From: a virus
Lineage: Duplodnaviria > Heunggongvirae > Uroviricota > Caudoviricetes
Strand: one strand, 5' to 3'
Virus record (IMG/VR): IMGVR_UViG_2563366875_000004
Span: 1 to 42,427 of that record
DNA: 42,427 bases
Shown one piece after another: positions 5,886-17,110 of this stretch. The position numbers and the translations under genes were made by a program. The notes under the pieces are model-generated. The model made no database searches and was not told where the DNA came from. It was given only the letters and a program-made list of their open reading frames with translations. Each line of letters begins with the position of its first letter. Positions within the stretch are counted from its first letter, which is position 1.

Positions 5886-6344
5886 TTATTGATGTTTGTT
5901 ACGTTTGCGAGCTTCTAGTAGCTCGGTGAATAGGCGATTAAAATTCTCAACGCGGGCACGGAGTTCGCTGATTTGTGCTTGCTGCTCTGATTTTGGAAGT
6001 GCGCGATACAATCGCAACATCTCCAACTCATCTTCCGATAAGTCTAAGGCGCTGTTGAGTGCAACTGGTGGATCTGGTGTTTTATCCTCGTCACCAAACA
6101 GTATCCAAGTTGGTGAACATTGCAATACCTCAGCCAGGCGATGCAAATTTTGCCCGCGCGGGGCTGTATGGTCGCTTTCCCATAGTGAAATTGATGAGCC
6201 AGATACGCCAGCAGCTTTGCTTAAATCGTTTTGACTTAAACCAACCTGTTTGCGTCTTTCTCTAATTCGTTGACCTAAAGTTTTCTCGTTCATATTTAGA
6301 TATCTTAATAACCCTTGACTTGAGATTCCTTGAGTGATTACCAT
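5886..6344 (-). CDS. Prophage repressor, HTH XRE/CI-type, without a LexA-like peptidase domain (152 aa; alternative start at 6293)
   Basis: HTH motif QVGLSQNDLSKAAGVSGSSISLWE; divergent from cro-like gene; C-terminal part is helical and lacks a Ser/Lys autocleavage module. Confidence 0.8.
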   Translation of the reverse strand: MVITQGISSQGLLRYLNMNEKTLGQRIRERRKQVGLSQNDLSKAAGVSGSSISLWESDHTAPRGQNLHRLAEVLQCSPTWILFGDEDKTPDPPVALNSALDLSEDELEMLRLYRALPKSEQQAQISELRARVENFNRLFTELLEARKRNKHQ

Positions 6345-6370: not shown

Positions 6371-6598
6371 ATGTTTAAATCAGACGTAATTAATTTTTAT
6401 GGGACGAAAGCCAAAGTAGCGAAAGCTGCTGGTGTTGATCCATCTGCTGTTTCTCAATGGGGAGAACTGGTTCCTGAAGGTCGCGCGATGCGCCTGCAAG
6501 AGGCATCTGGCGGGGAGCTTCAGTACGACCCCAAAGTTTATGACGAATATCGTAAGGCAAAGCGGGCGGGGCGGTTGAACAATGAAAATCACCCCTGA
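6371..6598 (+). CDS. cro: Cro-like / YdaS-like HTH regulator (75 aa)
   Basis: ATG at 6371 after GGAGGGG; small HTH protein divergent from repressor; the track ORF begins at an upstream TTG. Confidence 0.75.
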   Translation: MFKSDVINFYGTKAKVAKAAGVDPSAVSQWGELVPEGRAMRLQEASGGELQYDPKVYDEYRKAKRAGRLNNENHP

Positions 6599-7133
6599 AC
6601 AGGTTTGTGAGGCTCTGGATGCCTGGGTATGCCGACCAGGAATGACACAGGAGCAGGCGACGATATTAATCACGGAAGCATTCTGGGCTCTGAAAGAACG
6701 CCCGAACATTGATGTTCAACGCGTCACGTTTGATGATGGCGCGGTTGATCAACGGGCACTGGGCGTTAACCGGGTGAAGATATTCGAACGCTGGAAAGCT
6801 ATCGACACCAGGGATAAGCGTGAAAAATTCACGGCGCTGATTCCGGCAATTATGGAGGCTATCCGGATCAGTGATTTCAGGTTGTATCGTGAAATTACTG
6901 ACGGAAAAAGCATTACGTACATGATCGCCGGGTTAAACAAAGAATATGGCGATGTGGTGGAGTCCGGGCTGCTTTTTGCGGATCCAGCTGTTGTGGAACG
7001 TGAGACTGACGAGCTTATAGAAAAAGCTATTGCTTTCAAGCATGCGTATCGTCAGCAATACCAACATTACTTTGCAGATAAACAAATATCTGTCTGGGGT
7101 TCGTATGAGTATCGATGCACTACGATGGGCTAA
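6582..7133 (+). CDS. YdaT-like protein (CII functional analogue family), 183 aa
   Basis: Follows cro with overlap; segment IFERWKAIDTRDKREKFTALIPAIMEAI resembles the conserved YdaT core as I recall it. Confidence 0.6.
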   Translation: MKITPEQVCEALDAWVCRPGMTQEQATILITEAFWALKERPNIDVQRVTFDDGAVDQRALGVNRVKIFERWKAIDTRDKREKFTALIPAIMEAIRISDFRLYREITDGKSITYMIAGLNKEYGDVVESGLLFADPAVVERETDELIEKAIAFKHAYRQQYQHYFADKQISVWGSYEYRCTTMG

Positions 7134-8145
7134 AAAGGTGAAAACCGGCAGTTCATCCAGTAAGTCAGTATTGACCTGGCTTGCTGATATGTGCGGTGCC
7201 GATTTGTGTGCATACCCGTCTGTATCTGCACTGGCAGAAGTAACGGAACTGAACAAAAAGACTGTGCAGGACAGCTTACGACACCTGATGGAGATTGGGT
7301 TAATTGTTGATACCGGTGAGAGAAAAGGCCGAACAAAGCAAATCGTGGTGTACCGACTTATCGGTGTTGAAGAAAGTGTTGCCGAGCCTGAATACACCCA
7401 AAAACGGGAGTCTTTAAAGGTGGGTAAAATTGGTGCTGTTAATAAAAACAGTACCGAAAACGGTTATGTTTCAGCACTAAACAGACCCAAAAACGGAACT
7501 CTTTTCTGCATGGAAAATAACCAAAGACACCCAATTTTTCCATCAAAGACACCCAAAAACGGATCACGGAACCCAAAGGAACCCAAAGATCTAAACCCCA
7601 CACATAACACACGCGAGAGTGCTCCGACCAGTGAGCAGGAAGTTTTGTCGTTACAGGCAGCACCCCCTGTATTCCTGGATGGCCTGAGCGAACCCATCGG
7701 AAAATTTCCGATGACCGATAGCTGGTATCCGTCACGGGATTTTCGACGACGGGCTGCGTTGTGGGGGATGGCTTTGCCGGAGACAGAATTTACACCTGCT
7801 GAACTTGCCGCCTTCCGGGACTACTGGACAGCGGAGGGGAAAGTGTTTACGCAGATTCAGTGGGAGCAGAAATTCGCCCGTCACGTAAATCACGTCAGGG
7901 CGCAGGTTAAACCAGTCAGCAAGGGGGTAAACCATGCAGCAGCACCAGGTGGCACCGCATCACGGGCAGTTCAAGAAATTCGGGCAGCACGTGAGCAGTG
8001 GGAACGTGAAAACGGATTTATCAGCGACGGAAACGGCCTGGAAGCTGTGGGAGCTCATGGGGGAGGTTTATTCGAACCGCTGGACCCAGAAGAATGGGGC
8101 CGCACCTTCGAAGCTCTGGATTGCACAGATTGGCGCGATGACTGA
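7105..8145 (+). CDS. Replication initiator, lambda O-like: N-terminal HTH replication domain plus C-terminal DnaT-like domain
   Basis: N-terminus SIDALRWAKK...LTWLADMCGADLCAYPSVSALAEVTELNKKTV fits the HTH replication-protein pattern; low-complexity linker carries iterons; start chosen at internal ATG 7105. Confidence 0.7.
   Translation: MSIDALRWAKKVKTGSSSSKSVLTWLADMCGADLCAYPSVSALAEVTELNKKTVQDSLRHLMEIGLIVDTGERKGRTKQIVVYRLIGVEESVAEPEYTQKRESLKVGKIGAVNKNSTENGYVSALNRPKNGTLFCMENNQRHPIFPSKTPKNGSRNPKEPKDLNPTHNTRESAPTSEQEVLSLQAAPPVFLDGLSEPIGKFPMTDSWYPSRDFRRRAALWGMALPETEFTPAELAAFRDYWTAEGKVFTQIQWEQKFARHVNHVRAQVKPVSKGVNHAAAPGGTASRAVQEIRAAREQWERENGFISDGNGLEAVGAHGGGLFEPLDPEEWGRTFEALDCTDWRDD
7394..7590. 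repeat. Iteron-like direct repeats (putative replication origin) inside the initiator gene
   Basis: ACCCAAAAACGG at 7396-7407, 7485-7496 and 7551-7562; degenerate copy at 7452-7463; tandem ACCCAAAG at 7571-7588; CAAAGACACCCAA twice. Confidence 0.5.
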
Positions 8146-8599
8146 GCAGCAAATCCGACAGGTCTGCCGCCAGTGCATGGACCGCTGCCGGGCGGGTGAA
8201 ACATGGCCTCCGGACCTAGCTGAGTTTGTGGCACTGATTTCGGAAAGCGGAGCCAATCCATTCGGTCTGACGGTGGATGCTGTGATGGAGGAGTACCGTC
8301 GCTGGCGCAACGAGTCCTGGCGATACGACGGGAGCGATAAATACCCGTGGTCTCAGCCTGTGCTGTATCACATTTGCCTCGAGATGCGTTCAAAGGGGAT
8401 TGAGCGGCAGATGACCGAAGGGGAGTTAAAACGGCTTGCAGAACGGCAGCTGACGAAATGGGCAAAGCATGTTAGTAACGGCCTGAGCGTTCCGCCAGTC
8501 CGGCGACAACTGGCGGCCCCCAAACGTCCTGCGGGACCAACGCCAATTGAGTTGCTGAAACAGGAATATGAACGCCGGAAAGCGGCTGGGTTTGTCTGA
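7934..8599 (+). CDS. Replication protein P-like (helicase loader); start uncertain (7934 or 8138)
   Basis: C-terminal half aligns by eye with lambda P (YPW...W motif, TEGELKRLAERQL); ATG 7934 has a GGGGG RBS but overlaps the O-like gene by 212 nt in another frame. Confidence 0.6.
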   Translation: MQQHQVAPHHGQFKKFGQHVSSGNVKTDLSATETAWKLWELMGEVYSNRWTQKNGAAPSKLWIAQIGAMTEQQIRQVCRQCMDRCRAGETWPPDLAEFVALISESGANPFGLTVDAVMEEYRRWRNESWRYDGSDKYPWSQPVLYHICLEMRSKGIERQMTEGELKRLAERQLTKWAKHVSNGLSVPPVRRQLAAPKRPAGPTPIELLKQEYERRKAAGFV

Positions 8600-10999: not shown

Positions 11000-11218
11000 A
11001 TGCCTACATTATTCAGAAAAGAATATCCGCGAAAAAGTAGAGCGACAGAATTTTTGTTTCTCATTCTGTTTATCGTGTTGCTGATACCGATATCCCCGCT
11101 AATTTTTGTCTGGGCAATCGGGAAAATAATTGAGCCAGTTATTGAATTGTATACCGACGTTGTATGGGCGCCGTTCAACACACTGCACAACAAAATCAAC
11201 CCATATAAGGAAAGCTGA
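11000..11218 (+). CDS. Small single-pass membrane protein (72 aa)
   Basis: ATG after AAAGGAGAGTGA; hydrophobic stretch FLFLILFIVLLIPISPLIFVWAIG. Confidence 0.45.
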   Translation: MPTLFRKEYPRKSRATEFLFLILFIVLLIPISPLIFVWAIGKIIEPVIELYTDVVWAPFNTLHNKINPYKES

Positions 11219-11219
11219 T

Positions 11220-11753
11220 ATGACCACTATTACCAGAGAAAACGCGGAGATTAAATCATTCATCACTGGTTTCCTGAGCGACCCGGCGCACGATAACCAA
11301 TCTTCAGACAGCCTGCTTGCCAATGTGTTTCGTATCGCACTGGCATCGCTGGAAGCAGAGCCAGTGGCGTGGAAGGCAACCTTCACGCAAATTGACAATG
11401 AATATAATACGTTCACTGCTCTGTATTCTGACAAAGCAGAAGTCGAACGGTGGGGGCGACTGCATGAAATAGGTGACTTTCGGGCAGAAATAACACCGCT
11501 TTACGCAGCGCCGTCAGCGCCGGTAATTCCGGATGGTTGGATAAGCTGTAGTGAGCGAATGCCGGAAAAGAACCAGAACGTACTTATTTCGGTGAATTTC
11601 GATAGCTCTCTGGTTGAACCGCTAATATGCTCCGCACGCTATACCGGAAGCACATTCCGGCGAGGAGATGCAACGATTAAACCGGGTAATGGTATTGAGC
11701 AGGCAACTCACTGGATGCCGCTACCGGAACCACCGCAGGAGGTGAATCAATGA
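11220..11753 (+). CDS. Ea22-like N-terminus plus DUF551-like C-terminal domain protein (177 aa)
   Basis: ATG after AAGGAA; C-terminal W...MPLPEPP pattern. Confidence 0.55.
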   Translation: MTTITRENAEIKSFITGFLSDPAHDNQSSDSLLANVFRIALASLEAEPVAWKATFTQIDNEYNTFTALYSDKAEVERWGRLHEIGDFRAEITPLYAAPSAPVIPDGWISCSERMPEKNQNVLISVNFDSSLVEPLICSARYTGSTFRRGDATIKPGNGIEQATHWMPLPEPPQEVNQ

Positions 11754-11833
11754 CCAGGCCTGAAGCATTCACAACGGTAGGAATTGCAATGGCGGTGGCG
11801 CTGGTGGTGCATTCGATTTGCCGCTGGGGGTGA
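11750..11833 (+). CDS. Putative 27-aa hydrophobic peptide (MTRPEAFTTVGIAMAVALVVHSICRWG)
   Basis: ATGA overlap with stop of the preceding gene; GGAGG RBS 8 nt upstream; followed by a hairpin and U-rich tract. Confidence 0.25.
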   Translation: MTRPEAFTTVGIAMAVALVVHSICRWG

Positions 11834-11875: not shown

Positions 11876-12049
11876 TTATTTATTTGGGGAGATAATGTCC
11901 TGAAGCGTGACGATTACTTCTTCATCTGTATCTATATTTCGGAGTTGATATGTAATGTCGTCGTTTCTAATAATTTGCACTACAAGCCATTCTCCATTTT
12001 TTTCACGTAAGTGAACAGTACTGTTTTCCGATATACCATGAACGGTCAT
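11876..12049 (-). CDS. Hypothetical small protein (57 aa) in an AT-rich island
   Basis: Hand-translated (below track threshold); weak RBS; convergent with the early-right operon. Confidence 0.25.
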   Translation of the reverse strand: MTVHGISENSTVHLREKNGEWLVVQIIRNDDITYQLRNIDTDEEVIVTLQDIISPNK

Positions 12050-12199
12050 TTTTATACCTTTTGTGTTGTGTGAAGGAGCAGTATAGTCAGAAATGAGACA
12101 AGTGAAAGGGGATAGAAAGTAATAGTTTGTTTTTGTAGAATTGCTGCGGGTGCTTGAGGCTATCTGCCTCAGGCATGAACACCAAAAGGCAGATAGAGA

Positions 12200-12303
12200 A
12201 AAGCCCCAGTTAACATTACGCGTCCTGCAAGACGCTTAACATTAATCTGAGGCCATATCTATGCGACACATAGAGATTAGCCTCTTACGGACCGAAAGGT
12301 CAA
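12200..12303 (-). ncRNA. Sok-like antisense RNA with its promoter (approximate bounds)
   Basis: Minus-strand -35 TTGACC (12298-12303) and -10 TAATCT (12274-12279), 18-nt spacer, reading antisense across the mok start; 3' end not defined. Confidence 0.4.
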
Positions 12304-12320
12304 GGAGAAGCAGGCTATGA
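12261..12320 (+). CDS. mok-like upstream leader ORF (19 codons) coupled to hok
   Basis: ATG 12261; stop TGA overlaps the hok ATG (CTATGA). Confidence 0.3.
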   Translation: MRHIEISLLRTERSRRSRL

Positions 12321-12472
12321 AGCAGCAAAAGGCGATGTTAATCGCCCTGATCGTCATCTGTTTAACCGTCATAGTGACGGCACTGGTAACGAGGAAAGAC
12401 CTCTGCGAGGTACGAATCCGAACCGGTCAGACGGAGGTCGCTGTCTTCACAGCTTACGAACCTGAGGAGTAA
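12317..12472 (+). CDS. hok: Hok/Gef-family type I toxin (51 aa)
   Basis: MKQQKAMLIALIVICLTVIVTALVTRKDLCEVRIRTGQTEVAVFTAYEPEE closely matches Gef/HokC as recalled; GGAG RBS; mRNA 5' segment 12146-12159 is complementary to 3' segment 12522-12536 (fbi-like). Confidence 0.8.
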   Translation: MKQQKAMLIALIVICLTVIVTALVTRKDLCEVRIRTGQTEVAVFTAYEPEE

Positions 12473-12542
12473 GAGACCAGGCGAGGGAGAAATCCCTCGC
12501 CACCTCTGATGTGTCAGGCATCCTCAACGCACCCGCACTTAA

Positions 12543-12567
12543 CCCGCTTCGGCGGGTTTTTGTTTTT
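12543..12567 (+). terminator. Rho-independent terminator of the hok mRNA
   Basis: CCCGC-TTCG-GCGGG stem-loop followed by TTTTTGTTTTT. Confidence 0.6.
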
Positions 12568-12692
12568 ATTTTCAACGCGTTTGAAGTTCTGGATGGTGCC
12601 GGAATAGAATCAAAAATACTTAAGTAGCGCGCAGGGAGAAGAGGGATGGACCCCAAATGGGGGAGTGCTATTTATCTGGAAGGATTCTGTTG

Positions 12693-12953
12693 ATGAAAAT
12701 CGAAGAATTACGTGAAATTTTTAGTGAAGATGGCCTCTATACTGTGCGCGTTGAGAATGGCGCTATTGTCAGCCACTGCCGTATTAAATGTTTACAGTCT
12801 CAACAAAGGAAGAGTGGAACTGCGTTAATTCATTTGGTGGATGGGCTTGTGACGGATGGTTTTATTTTGCGTGCAAATGAATTTGTCACATCGTTGCCGT
12901 CTCTGAAAGAAGCTGGGATTAAGGCTGGTTTTTCTGCTTTTGAAGATGTGTGA
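12693..12953 (+). CDS. Hypothetical protein (86 aa), nin-like region
   Basis: ATG at 12693 after GGA; AT-rich codon usage suggests a foreign insert. Confidence 0.45.
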   Translation: MKIEELREIFSEDGLYTVRVENGAIVSHCRIKCLQSQQRKSGTALIHLVDGLVTDGFILRANEFVTSLPSLKEAGIKAGFSAFEDV

Positions 12954-13299: not shown

Positions 13300-14349
13300 G
13301 TGCGGGTATTACTTCGACCTGTTCCGGTACCGGAACTCGGGCTGGTGGTCCTTAAGCCTGGTCGTGAATCCATGCAGGTATTTCATAACCCTCGAGTGCT
13401 GGTGGAGCCTGAACCGAAAAGCATGCGCGGTCTGCCGTCCGGAGTCGTCCCTGCCGTCCGCCAGCCGCTGGTGGAGGATAAATCATTACTGCCATTTTTC
13501 AGCAATGAGCGTGTGATTCGTGCTGCTGGCGGCGCTGGTGCACTGTCTGACTGGCTGTTGCGTCATGTCAAATCCTGCCAGTGGCCTCATGGTGACTATC
13601 ATCACAGTGAAATCGTCATACATCGTTATGGTACCGGCGCGATGGTGTTGTGCTGGCACTGCGACAACCAGCTGCGTGACCAGACTTCCGAATCACTCGG
13701 GCAACTTGCTCACCAAAACCTGTCAGCATGGATGATTGACGTCATCCGTCACGCAATGAATGGCACACAGGAGCGGGAATTATCGCTGGCTGAATTATCC
13801 TGGTGGGCAGTCTGCAATCAGGTGGCGGACGCGCTACCGGAGACAGTATTACGTCGTTCTCTGAGGTTACGTGCGGAAAAAATCCGCTCGGTGTACCGCG
13901 AAAGCGACATCATGCCGGGAGAGCAGACAGCCACCAGCATACTGAAGCAGCGCACAAAAAATATTGTGCTATCGCCTCACGCCCACCAGCAACAGAACTC
14001 ACCGCAGGAAAAGGCGGTGGTCAGCATTGCTGTTGATCCTGAGTCTCCGGAATCTTTCATGAAGCGGCCTAAACGTCGCCGTTGGGTAAATGAGAAATAC
14101 ACGCGCTGGGTGAAGACACAGCCGTGTGCGTGTTGCGGTAAGCCAGCCGACGATCCCCATCACCTGATTGGTCATGGTCAGGGCGGAATGGGGACAAAAG
14201 CCCACGATATTTTCACGCTACCGCTGTGTCGGGAGCATCACAACGAGCTTCATGCGGATCCGCTGGCGTTCGAAGAAAAGCATGGTTCCCAGGTTGATTT
14301 AATTTTTCGTTTTCTTGATCACGCCTTTGCAACCGGCGTGCTCGGGTAA
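13300..14349 (+). CDS. DUF968-family (YdfU-like) protein with C-terminal HNH-like Cys/His motif
   Basis: GTG start after GGAGG; C-terminus CACCGKPADDPHHLIGHG...CREHHNELH. Confidence 0.65.
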   Translation: MRVLLRPVPVPELGLVVLKPGRESMQVFHNPRVLVEPEPKSMRGLPSGVVPAVRQPLVEDKSLLPFFSNERVIRAAGGAGALSDWLLRHVKSCQWPHGDYHHSEIVIHRYGTGAMVLCWHCDNQLRDQTSESLGQLAHQNLSAWMIDVIRHAMNGTQERELSLAELSWWAVCNQVADALPETVLRRSLRLRAEKIRSVYRESDIMPGEQTATSILKQRTKNIVLSPHAHQQQNSPQEKAVVSIAVDPESPESFMKRPKRRRWVNEKYTRWVKTQPCACCGKPADDPHHLIGHGQGGMGTKAHDIFTLPLCREHHNELHADPLAFEEKHGSQVDLIFRFLDHAFATGVLG

Positions 14350-14361
14350 AAGAGGTTACTG

Positions 14362-14820
14362 ATGCGTATAGAGTTTGTTTTGCCTTACCCGCCGACGGTG
14401 AACACCTACTGGCGACGTCGTGGCAGCACATATTTTGTATCAAAAGCCGGTGAGCGTTATCGCCGTGATGTGGCGCTTATTGTTCGCCAGCAGCGACTGA
14501 AATTAAACCTGTCCGGAAGGCTGGCGATAAAGATTATTGCAGAGCCACCGGATAAGCGCCGTCGTGACTTGGACAATATTCTGAAAGCACCACTGGATGC
14601 ACTGACACATGCGGGGTTGCTTATCGACGACGAGCAGTTTGATGAAATCAATATTGTGCGCGGACTGCCTGTTCCTGGTGGTCGGTTGGGTGTGAAGATT
14701 TACGAAATTACAGGTGATAACGATGGCGCGAGATATTCAGCAGGTTATGGAGCGGTGGGGAGCATGGGCTGCAAACAATCACGAAGATGTGTCATGGGCG
14801 TCAATCGCTGCTGGTTTTAA
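14362..14820 (+). CDS. rusA: RusA-family Holliday junction resolvase (with C-terminal extension overlapping Q)
   Basis: N-terminal [19 protein letters not shown] and [26 protein letters not shown] are RusA hallmarks. Confidence 0.8.
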
Positions 14821-15109
14821 AGGATTAATCCCGCCGAAAGTGAAATCACGCCCTCAGTGTTCTGATGATGATGCAATGATAATTTGTGGCTGTATGGCCC
14901 GGTTGAACAAGAAAAATCAGGATTTGCACGATTTGTTGGTGGATTATTACGTAGGTGGAATGACTTTTATGGGGCTGGCACGAAAGCATGGGTGTTCGGA
15001 TACCTGTATTGGCAAGCGCCTGCAGAAAGCGGAAGGGGTTATTGATGGCATGTTGATGATGCTTGATATCCGACTGGAGATGGACCGATACGTAGAACGA
15101 ATTATGTAG
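14723..15109 (+). CDS. Short Q-like late antiterminator (QuuD-like, 128 aa)
   Basis: ATG after AGGTGA; size and position immediately upstream of a pR'-like promoter and terminator. Confidence 0.65.
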
Positions 15110-15143: not shown

Positions 15144-15206
15144 TCCGACGCAACCGCAAAATCGGTTGTCGGGATTAGCACCCCGGATGTTTACGGAGCG
15201 ATATGA

Positions 15207-15226
15207 GACGCGCCCGCGTCTTTTTT
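15207..15226 (+). terminator. tR'-like intrinsic terminator
   Basis: GACGC-tetraloop-GCGTC followed by TTTTTT. Confidence 0.5.
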
Positions 15227-15390
15227 CATATCGTTTGCACAGTCACATTCGCGATTAATGGCGGGCTGTGTGGGGGAGCCGAAAGGCTCGCCGGTTTCCG
15301 TACCCGGTAGTGCTAACCCCGCACAGTTCGCCACCACGATGATTAGCACCTGACGGTGGCGATAATGTCCAAATGTACGGAGTTATCGTT

Positions 15391-15954
15391 ATGACCACTC
15401 AGATTTCTGTCGAAACTCTTTCCCCAATTACACACAACCAAATTCCCGTTATCACTACCGAGTTACTGGCACAGCTTTACGGTACAGATTCAGATAACAT
15501 CAAAAAGAATTATTCGCGTAACGCAGATCGTTTTTATGAAGGTAAGCACTTCTACAAAGTGATTGGTGATGAACTAAAGAATTTGCGGGTGACTTTAAGT
15601 CACTCACAAAATCCCATCTCTCCCAAAACCCGCTCGCTCATACTCTGGACAGAACGCGGAGCAGCCCGCCACGCAAAAATGCTGGAAACCGATCAGGCAT
15701 GGGAGGTATTCGAAAAACTGGAAGATTGTTATTTCAGCCGAAAACAACCAGCTGCAGCACAAAACACATCTATCGAAAATGATGGATGCGCATTACTGAT
15801 CCACTTCGATAAACACGGTCAGGTCGACTTCACGGAAAAAGTACCCGCCGATGCGATGGTATGCACTCTGGAACGGTTCAAATTTTATCTGGAACAACGC
15901 GGCTGGATCGTTGCCCGTAAAGAACAACTGGTGGAATGGTTGATGCGGTTTTAG
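15391..15954 (+). CDS. ORF6N/Rha-like DNA-binding domain protein (candidate antirepressor or regulator), 187 aa
   Basis: N-terminal pattern ITTELLAQLYGTDSDNIKKNYSRNADRFYEGKHFYKV plus LILWTERGAARHAKMLETDQAWEVFEKLE resembles ORF6N-type domains as recalled; GGAG RBS. Confidence 0.55.
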   Translation: MTTQISVETLSPITHNQIPVITTELLAQLYGTDSDNIKKNYSRNADRFYEGKHFYKVIGDELKNLRVTLSHSQNPISPKTRSLILWTERGAARHAKMLETDQAWEVFEKLEDCYFSRKQPAAAQNTSIENDGCALLIHFDKHGQVDFTEKVPADAMVCTLERFKFYLEQRGWIVARKEQLVEWLMRF

Positions 15955-16956: not shown

Positions 16957-17032
<76 letters not shown>

Positions 17033-17035
17033 TAT

Positions 17036-17110
<75 letters not shown>

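What the first reader, a model, noticed from the sequence alone, without database searches (positions are those of the whole stretch)
12100..12567. Complete hok/sok-type type I toxin-antitoxin locus in the nin-like region
All hallmark elements can be read: a Gef/HokC-like 51-aa toxin, an upstream leader ORF whose stop overlaps the toxin ATG, a minus-strand TTGACC-18-TAATCT promoter for an antisense RNA over the leader start, 5'/3' complementarity of the mRNA ends (12146-12159 versus 12522-12536), a stable GAAA-tetraloop hairpin at 12481-12500 and a terminator. The family is known, but the intact regulatory architecture suggests it is functional, perhaps for prophage maintenance or abortive infection.
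Basis: partly seen in the sequence, partly recalled or inferred. Interest (0 to 1): 0.45.

Follow-up and report, generated by a model that had tools for sequence, protein, structure and literature searches.

The report
Intact prophage hok/sok toxin-antitoxin locus
This is a complete but ordinary copy of the well-known hok/sok killer-peptide and antisense-RNA module that most E. coli prophages carry, differing from the textbook version only in a shortened leader reading frame.

Summary

- **Toxin:** the 51-aa peptide (12317-12472) matches Pfam HOK_GEF (E 1e-23) and is 51/51 identical to E. coli K-12 HokD (RelF).
- **Leader RNA:** it matches Rfam RF01794 at 108 bits (threshold 59).
- **Regulatory elements:** the R1-type set is all there, namely tac/fbi 5'-3' pairing, ucb, dcb, mok, the sok promoter and terminator, a protective 3' hairpin and the hok terminator.
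- **Setting:** the locus sits between the replication genes and Q of a lambdoid prophage and is co-oriented with the early rightward operon.
- **Spread:** homologous DNA occurs in 4728 of 5426 complete E. coli genomes, where it is annotated hokD, MokW, hok or gef.
- **Tested relative:** hokW-sokW of Stx2 phage Sp5 is 94% identical in DNA. It has been shown to be toxic, to be repressed by sokW, and to speed lysis and phage release on induction.

The locus is therefore already known, and its interest is low. Three minor points stand out:

- mok is a 19-codon frame ending in ATGA on the hok start. This allele occurs in about 11% of related loci.
- The Sok 5' tail lies in a hypervariable segment.
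- Tyr47 lies in a TadA editing motif.

The parts
12113..12141 (+). hok promoter: weak -35-like TAGAAA (12113-12118), 17-nt spacer, -10 TAGAAT (12136-12141)
   Evidence: Consensus scan, 9 of 12 matches. Similarity to relatives begins at about 12135, so only the -10 is conserved. R1 has TATGAT at the same place.
12148..12565 (+). full-length mok-hok mRNA (predicted; 5' end GGGUGCUUGAGG by homology with R1 GGCGCUUGAGG)
   Evidence: The Rfam RF01794 model starts at 12148. Fold -175.1 kcal/mol, z = -8.85, with the 5' and 3' ends paired.
12148..12160 (+). tac element (5' end); pairs with fbi in the full-length RNA and with ucb in the 3'-truncated RNA
   Evidence: tac-fbi -21.5 kcal/mol and tac-ucb -20.3 kcal/mol. 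The truncated RNA 12148-12512 refolds into the tac/ucb hairpin.
12166..12172 (+). ucb (anti-SD) core GCCUCAG, complementary to the mok SD region CUGAGGC at 12247-12253
   Evidence: Duplex -13.6 kcal/mol. The same element is present in R1.
12197..12267 (-). Sok antisense RNA (predicted, about 71 nt): 5' tail GUCGCAUAGAUAUGG, then a long hairpin and U tract
   Evidence: Fold -32.2 kcal/mol, z = -5.5, hairpin followed by GGGGCUUUUCU. sokW is reported as 71 nt complementary to the hokW leader (PMC8621323).
12249..12252 (+). mok Shine-Dalgarno GAGG, 8 nt upstream of the mok ATG
   Evidence: Sequence. Invariant in 66 relatives.
12253..12277 (+). hypervariable segment: mok start codon and first codons, Sok 5' tail, sok promoter discriminator
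   Evidence: pi 0.28, against 0.007 in the hok CDS and 0.012 at third codon positions. 23 variants in 121 distinct loci; the window allele accounts for 13 of 121 and is the only 25-nt class in that set.
12261..12320 (+). mok leader ORF, 19 codons plus TGA overlapping the hok ATG (ATGA)
   Evidence: Translation. Relatives place the mok ATG at -57 (in frame, 70 aa), -58 (out of frame, 68-69 aa) or -56 (this short form).
12274..12303 (-). sok promoter: -35 TTGACC (12303-12298), 18-nt spacer, -10 TAATCT (12279-12274); predicted start G at 12267
   Evidence: Sequence. Positional homology with the R1 and sokW promoters. Not reported by the consensus scan.
12280..12284 (+). dcb core GCCUC, alternative partner of the mok SD
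   Evidence: Duplex -9.3 kcal/mol. TAGCCTCTTAC is conserved through to R1.
12303..12307 (+). hok Shine-Dalgarno AGGAG, 9 nt upstream of the hok ATG
   Evidence: Sequence. This is the first base of similarity to the truncated K-12 hokD locus.
12317..12472 (+). hok toxin gene, 51 aa plus stop
   Evidence: Pfam HOK_GEF E 1.2e-23. PHROG 251. 51/51 identical to K-12 HokD. 47/51 identical to HokW.
12455..12458 (+). UACG TadA-type editing motif; Tyr47 codon UAC (12455-12457) would read as Cys if A12456 is deaminated
   Evidence: Motif in frame at codon 47. Sequence identical to K-12 hokD here, whose mRNA is reported about 6% edited (PMC12214031).
12480..12501 (+). 9-bp GAAA-loop hairpin, presumed 3' end protector of the processed mRNA
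   Evidence: Folds. 99.5% paired in relatives, with GU/AU/GC variation at one pair. Compensated changes relative to hokW.
12522..12534 (+). fbi element CCUCAACGCACCC, partner of tac
12541..12568 (+). intrinsic terminator of hok mRNA (AACCCGC-TTCG-GCGGGTT plus T run)
   Evidence: Terminator scan.

Best explanation
[quoted passage not shown] It belongs to the HokD/HokW lineage that lives in the nin-like region of lambdoid prophages.

Inferred mechanism, by homology with R1 hok/sok:
1. A weak constitutive promoter makes a 0.42-kb mRNA. Its 5' end (tac) pairs with a 3' element (fbi).
2. In that closed form the mok ribosome-binding site is sequestered, and neither ribosomes nor Sok act on the RNA.
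3. Slow 3' trimming back to the GAAA hairpin removes fbi. The 5' end then folds onto ucb and the mok start region opens.
4. The short-lived roughly 71-nt Sok RNA, made from the convergent TTGACC/TAATCT promoter, pairs there and the duplex is destroyed.
5. If Sok is lacking, ribosomes translate the 19-codon mok frame through the hok SD, stop at UGA on the hok AUG, and hok is translated by coupling.
6. The 51-aa Hok peptide inserts in the inner membrane and collapses it.

Likely role in the prophage: Sok supply fails on induction, so Hok is made early and helps lysis and phage release, as shown for hokW-sokW. My own inference for how Sok is lost is that antiterminated early rightward transcription, which runs in the hok direction, collides with the sok promoter.
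For: Shown here:
- Pfam, PHROG and Rfam matches.
- Hok identical to K-12 HokD.
- All R1-type RNA elements present with favourable energies: tac-fbi -21.5, tac-ucb -20.3, ucb-SD -13.6, SD-dcb -9.3 kcal/mol.
- The full-length fold is closed by tac/fbi (z = -8.85). The truncated RNA switches to the tac/ucb hairpin.
- Sok folds as a hairpin plus U tract.
- The structure is 96.6% paired across 66 distinct relatives, with 8 pairs showing double changes against 2.6 in shuffles.
- R1 keeps the tac/fbi pairing with different bases, GGCGC/GCGCC.
- Prophage context and co-orientation with the repressor-distal early operon and Q.

From papers:
- hokW-sokW is 94% identical over 402 nt, and all four published oligos checked map to the compared allele. 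It is toxic, is neutralised by sokW expressed from its own promoter, loses sokW on RecA-dependent induction, and doubles phage release (PMC8621323).
- mok translation is needed only up to the hok initiation region, and stops after the hok start have no effect (PMC9841398).
Against: - No expression or toxicity data exist for this copy.
- The sok -10 matches the consensus at only 3 of 6 positions and the spacer is 18 nt. The validated sokW promoter is no better, at 7 of 12.
- Chromosomal hok loci of K-12 and other strains failed to give post-segregational killing (cited in bioRxiv 10.1101/2025.08.07.668861).
- The short mok frame has not been tested directly.
- The relatives are so similar that covariation support is modest.
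- The transcriptional-interference step is inference only. A weak terminator-like hairpin at 11798-11810 could limit read-through.
Confidence: 0.88

Rival explanations
1. The locus is an evolutionary relic. It is structurally intact but physiologically silent, like the chromosomal hok loci of laboratory E. coli, and is carried along passively by prophage recombination.
For: [quoted passage not shown] K-12 hokD is a truncated remnant of exactly this locus, lacking everything upstream of the hok SD. Some IMG/VR copies are similarly truncated (L035, L039 and L080).
Against: Every regulatory element is intact and nearly invariant across 66 distinct relatives. hok third-codon diversity is only 0.012. 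The module occurs in 87% of complete E. coli genomes, often in several copies. The 94%-identical hokW-sokW is active from a single-copy prophage (PMC8621323).
Confidence: 0.1
2. The selected function is prophage addiction or abortive infection and superinfection exclusion. Hok would kill cells that lose the prophage, or cells whose transcription is shut off by an infecting lytic phage. It would not be there to help the prophage's own lysis.
For: R1 hok/sok stabilises plasmids and reduces T4 plating (cited in PMC8621323). hok genes are about four-fold enriched in prophages. The mechanism, a stable toxin mRNA with a labile antisense RNA, responds to any transcription stop.
Against: Hok and its neighbours have no hit in PADLOC. 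hok is not enriched next to defence systems. The only direct prophage experiment shows a positive effect on the phage's own release. The two roles are not mutually exclusive.
Confidence: 0.3
3. The one-nt frame shift of mok (ATG at -56, stop on the hok ATG) uncouples hok translation. This allele would then make Sok but little or no Hok, acting as an antitoxin-only or 'anti-addiction' copy against related hok mRNAs.
For: Most relatives, and R1, have mok running on into hok. The window allele is a minority, 13 of 121. Premature mok stops upstream of the hok start abolish toxicity in R1.
Against: The stop lies after the hok SD and overlaps the start codon, which is the classical termination-reinitiation arrangement. 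In R1, translation only up to the hok initiation region is required. Relatives use all three mok frames (-56, -57, -58), so the frame is evidently not constrained. The allele recurs on several different flanking backgrounds, always with an intact hok identical in protein sequence.
Confidence: 0.07

Closest known systems
hokW-sokW of Stx2 prophage Sp5 (E. coli O157:H7 Sakai), PMC8621323
   Same: Same position in a lambdoid prophage and the same architecture. 94% DNA identity over the 402 nt from the -10 to fbi, and Hok 47/51 identical. Same tac, ucb, dcb, fbi and Sok hairpin.
   Different: The variable segment, and hence the Sok 5' tail, differs: GUCGCAUAGAUAUGG here against GUUCAGCAUGGAUUGAG. 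mok is in frame and 70 aa in hokW but 19 codons here. The sok promoter is TTGACC-18-TAATCT here against TTGCCT-17-TAACCT. The Hok C-terminus is TAYEPEE against VDYESEK. The sequence downstream of fbi differs.
hokD (relF) of the Qin cryptic prophage, E. coli K-12
   Same: Hok protein 51/51 identical. The CDS, 3' hairpin, fbi, terminator and the downstream rem-like gene are nearly identical. PGAP names the prophage copies hokD.
   Different: K-12 hokD has relBE in place of the promoter, tac, ucb, mok and sok, with similarity starting at the hok SD. The window copy is the intact form.
hok/sok of plasmid R1 (paradigm)
   Same: All named elements are in the same order. Both match Rfam RF01794, at 108 bits here and 87 bits for the R1-type locus. 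The mok start lies 56-57 nt upstream of hok.
   Different: About 44% protein identity according to PMC8621323. R1 sits on a plasmid and acts in plasmid stabilisation. The Sok hairpin is 21 nt longer here. mok is in frame with hok in R1. tac/fbi uses different bases.

Membership tests
[quoted passage not shown] | Small (about 50 aa) hydrophobic Hok/Gef-family toxin | tested here: met
   Pfam PF01848, 82.9 bits against a cut-off of 22. PHROG 251. Below the NCBIfam subfamily cut-off, 48.5 against 73, but 100% identical to K-12 HokD.
[quoted passage not shown] | hok mRNA leader with the conserved sequence and structure (Rfam RF01794) | tested here: met
   108.3 bits against a gathering score of 59, full-length model, 12148-12319. 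The hit is on the hok mRNA strand.
[quoted passage not shown] | Long-range 5'-3' pairing (tac/fbi) that closes the full-length mRNA | tested here: met
   14 bp with one bulge, -21.5 kcal/mol. Present in the minimum-free-energy fold. 100% paired in 66 relatives. Unique in the window.
[quoted passage not shown] | Alternative pairings tac/ucb, ucb/mok-SD and mok-SD/dcb that switch after 3' truncation | tested here: met
   Duplex energies. The truncated RNA refolds to the tac/ucb hairpin. This is prediction only.
[quoted passage not shown] | mok leader frame whose translation is coupled to hok | tested here: met
   A 19-codon ORF with an SD, whose stop overlaps the hok ATG. It differs from the canonical in-frame 70-aa Mok. 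Coupling itself was not tested.
[quoted passage not shown] | cis-encoded antisense Sok RNA with its own promoter and terminator, covering the mok start | tested here: inconclusive
   A promoter at the homologous position, plus a hairpin and U tract. The -10 is weak and was not reported by the scan. The transcript itself cannot be observed with these tools.
[quoted passage not shown] | Toxicity of Hok and its neutralisation by Sok; 3' processing of the mRNA | not testable with these tools
   Toxicity and neutralisation were shown for the 94%-identical hokW-sokW (PMC8621323); that study saw smaller hokW RNAs but left open whether they are processed forms, and none of this is shown for this copy.
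TadA-edited hok genes (hokB/C/D/E) | UACG motif placing a Tyr codon at the conserved C-terminal Cys position | tested here: met
   UUACGAA at 12453-12459, Tyr47 codon in frame. Identical to K-12 hokD, which is edited about 6% (PMC12214031). Editing here was not observed.

The most novel reading that the evidence does not exclude
The 25-28-nt hypervariable segment at the mok start, which encodes the single-stranded 5' tail of Sok, may be a specificity cassette under diversifying selection. Each co-resident prophage copy would then be controlled only by its own Sok, so induction or loss of one prophage fires only that prophage's Hok. The window's short-mok allele would be one such specificity class.
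Probability: 0.3. Interest if true: 0.45.

Novelty: already known. Interest (0 to 1): 0.15.

Why it matters
It matters little as a discovery. The module is annotated routinely, is found in most E. coli genomes, and a near-identical copy has been characterised experimentally.

Its value is as a clean, intact reference for the truncated K-12 hokD. It is also a natural variant showing that mok need only be translated as far as the hok start. The hypervariable Sok tail among otherwise near-identical copies could offer a way to study cross-talk between multiple type I TA copies in polylysogens.

Tried and rejected
- The sigma-70 consensus scan did not report the sok promoter. I kept the site on the basis of homology, not the scan.
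- Covariation analysis on 66 relatives is limited. The sequences average 96% column identity, and the structure was derived from the window itself.
- I tested whether co-resident copies carry different variable segments. All 9 pairs differ, counting copies within E. coli ECMA0423, S. flexneri SFBU1023, two Kluyvera genomes, MGYG-HGUT-00110 and two IMG genomes. Chance identity is only about 0.1, so the test has no power.
- PADLOC gave no hit for Hok or its neighbours.
- I considered that the 2-nt shorter variable segment was a private frameshift mutation. This was rejected, because the same allele recurs in 13 of 121 distinct loci.
- I did not use structure prediction or the large protein searches, because the family assignment was already unambiguous.

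Full report
**Observation**

The region was read directly and all ORFs were listed. The 51-aa ORF at 12317-12472 is MKQQKAMLIALIVICLTVIVTALVTRKDLCEVRIRTGQTEVAVFTAYEPEE. It matches Pfam HOK_GEF (E 1.2e-23, 82.9 bits against a cut-off of 22) and PHROG 251 'MokW-like host killing'. It is 51/51 identical to HokD (RelF) of E. coli K-12.

Rfam's covariance model RF01794 ('sok') matches 12148-12319 on the plus strand over its whole length, at 108.3 bits against a gathering score of 59. That model describes the hok mRNA leader strand.

The leader ORF starts at ATG 12261, has 19 codons, and ends at TGA 12318-12320, which overlaps the hok ATG as ATGA.

On the minus strand, TTGACC (12303-12298), an 18-nt spacer and TAATCT (12279-12274) are present. 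The simple consensus scan misses this site because the -10 matches only 3 of 6 positions.

The remaining elements are also in place:
- The hok promoter-like site TAGAAA-17-TAGAAT (12113-12141).
- The terminator (12541-12558 plus a T run), found by the scan.
- The 5'/3' complementarity (12146-12159 with 12522-12536).
- The GAAA hairpin (12480-12501).

**Is it more than chance?**

The fbi motif CCTCAANGCACCC is unique in the 42-kb window, with 0.23 matches expected at one mismatch or fewer. The full-length RNA 12148-12563 folds to -175.1 kcal/mol, against -122 ± 6 for shuffles (z = -8.85). In that fold the first 12 nt pair with 12522-12534.

When the RNA is cut after the GAAA hairpin (12148-12512), the 5' end instead forms a hairpin with 12165-12175. 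This is the tac/ucb switch described for R1 (PMC9841398).

Duplex energies for the four R1-type interactions are tac-fbi -21.5, tac-ucb -20.3, ucb-mok SD -13.6 and mok SD-dcb -9.3 kcal/mol.

The predicted antisense RNA (about 12267 to 12197, 71 nt) has a 5' single-stranded tail, a long hairpin and a GGGGCUUUUCU end (-32.2 kcal/mol, z = -5.5).

**Context**

The closest complete E. coli prophage (strain M9; 77% coverage, 92.9% identity), together with Pfam and PHROG scans of window ORFs, gives this gene order:
- HTH repressor, 5886-6344, minus strand.
- YdaT-like protein, 6582-7133.
- DnaT-like replication protein, 7030-8145.
- Lambda P-like protein, 7934-8599.
- DUF551 protein, 11130-11753.
- hok/sok.
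- A rem-like ORF, 12657-12953.
- DUF968 protein, 13300-14349.
- RusA, 14362-14820.
- Q-like antiterminator, 14714-15109.
- Then small RNAs, an anti-repressor, two tRNAs and the lysis genes.

The locus thus sits in the nin-like region, and hok is co-oriented with the early rightward operon.

**Relatives**

The 541-nt region has megablast matches in 4728 of 5426 complete E. coli genomes. The median is 2 places per genome and the maximum is 10. RefSeq annotates these as 'type I toxin-antitoxin system toxin HokD'. It also matches 102 phage records, annotated MokW, hok, gef or host killer.

IMG/VR holds hundreds of prophage copies that encode the identical Hok. A pattern scan of species-representative genomes finds the leader in Escherichia, Shigella, Kluyvera and Pseudocitrobacter.

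K-12 hokD aligns only from the hok SD onward. relBE replaces the promoter, tac, ucb, mok and sok. The window copy is therefore the intact form of that remnant.

The experimentally studied hokW-sokW allele was identified in Stx2 phage I by exact matches of four published oligonucleotides. It is 94% identical over 402 nt and 47/51 identical in Hok. According to PMC8621323:
- HokW is toxic.
- sokW expressed from its own promoter neutralises it.
- RNase III and Hfq contribute.
- sokW disappears on RecA-dependent induction.
- HokW then appears in the inner membrane, about an hour before the endolysin.
- Deletion of the locus delays growth arrest and halves phage release.

**Structure conservation**

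On 66 distinct full-length relatives (alignment A2), the window's fold is 96.6% paired, against about 40% when partners are slid. Eight pairs show double changes, against 2.6 in shuffles. tac/fbi is paired in every sequence.

The set is very similar (96% mean column identity), and the structure came from one of its members. This is therefore support rather than proof. The R1-type locus keeps the tac/fbi pairing with different bases (GGCGCUU/AAGCGCC, -17.2 kcal/mol).

**The mok frame**

In R1 the mok ATG lies 57 nt upstream of hok and is in frame, so Mok is an N-terminally extended Hok. Of the 81 related loci that have a recognisable mok start (80 IMG/VR loci, three reference loci and the window, minus three lacking the leader), the frames are:
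- In-frame 70-aa form: 68 loci.
- The window's -56 frame with the 19-codon ORF: 12 loci.
- The Rac record, at -58, with a 68-aa out-of-frame ORF: 1 locus.

Kluyvera copies and some E. coli copies also use -58.

In a wider sample the window allele makes up 13 of 121 distinct loci. Relative to the common alleles it has a 2-nt shorter variable segment and one extra T, which restores a 4-bp GAAA hairpin at 12290-12301.

Saturation mutagenesis of R1 showed that mok must be translated up to the hok initiation region. Stops beyond the hok start are harmless (PMC9841398). A stop overlapping the hok AUG should therefore preserve coupling. This is inference and has not been tested.

**Mechanism and role**

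The post-transcriptional circuit is inferred by homology, and every sequence element it needs is present. For the biological role, the only direct data point to help with lysis on induction.

The authors left open why sokW vanishes. hok is co-oriented with the early operon and the sok promoter faces it. I therefore suggest that antiterminated read-through interferes with sok transcription. This is speculative. A weak terminator-like hairpin at 11798-11810 lies upstream.

Addiction and abortive infection remain possible, non-exclusive roles. Hok and its neighbours have no PADLOC hit, and a recent survey found hok enriched in prophages but not near defence systems (bioRxiv 10.1101/2025.08.07.668861).

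**Side observations**

The segment 12253-12277 is hypervariable among relatives. Its pi is 0.28, against 0.012 at hok third codon positions, and 23 variants occur in 121 loci. Those relatives were selected for an identical or near-identical Hok, so the low coding diversity is partly by construction.

This segment encodes the predicted Sok 5' tail. Cognate tail-target duplexes average -27 kcal/mol, against -11 for non-cognate pairs. Co-resident copies all differ in the 9 pairs I could check, but the test lacks power.

Tyr47 (UAC, 12455-12457) lies in a UUACGAA motif identical to K-12 hokD, whose mRNA is reported to be about 6% A-to-I edited to Cys (PMC12214031).

**Verdict**

It is an already known, very common element. 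Interest is low.

Noticed in passing
window 12253-12277, and alignment A2 columns 106-131: Hypervariable 25-28-nt segment at the mok start and Sok 5' tail in otherwise near-identical loci. pi is 0.28 against 0.012 at hok third codon positions, with 23 variants in 121 loci. Predicted cognate Sok-tail duplexes average -27 kcal/mol against -11 for non-cognate pairs. It may set Sok specificity between co-resident copies.
   Followed up: partly
window 12261-12320; loci L001, L208-L233: The mok reading frame is not conserved among close relatives. The ATG lies at -57 (in frame, 70 aa), -58 (out of frame, 68-69 aa) or -56 (19 codons ending ATGA, as in the window).
   Followed up: yes
window 12453-12459: UUACGAA TadA-type editing motif with Tyr47 UAC in frame. 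It is identical to K-12 hokD, which is reported to be edited to Cys at low level. A second UACG at 12411 would be synonymous (GUA to GUG), and hokW has G at that position.
   Followed up: partly
window 15150-15338 and 15373-15954: Rfam isrK (74 bits) and C4 antisense RNA (77 bits) lie back to back just downstream of the Q-like gene and upstream of an ORF6N/anti-repressor gene. This resembles a Gifsy-1 isrK or P1 c4-ant type module.
   Followed up: no
window 16957-17110: Two phage-borne tRNA genes, tRNA-Thr(TGT) and tRNA-Gly(TCC), lie between the anti-repressor and the lysis region. The closest E. coli prophage carries tRNA-Ile and tRNA-Gly there.
   Followed up: no
window 11876-12049 (minus strand): A 57-aa ORF on the opposite strand lies between the DUF551 gene and hok. 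It has no Pfam, PHROG or PADLOC hit. This 380-nt spacer is not shared with most relatives, whose similarity starts at about 12135.
   Followed up: partly
L222 (Enterobacteriaceae MGYG-HGUT-00110) 808-1421: Two hok/sok leaders lie in tandem about 560 nt apart, with different variable segments and slightly different Hok peptides.
   Followed up: no
L215, L216, L220, L224 (MAGs labelled Collinsella, Scatousia and Haemophilus; a 431-nt Xanthomonas pisi contig): Exact E. coli-type hok/sok leaders occur on very short contigs assigned to unrelated taxa. These are most likely binning or assembly contamination.
   Followed up: no
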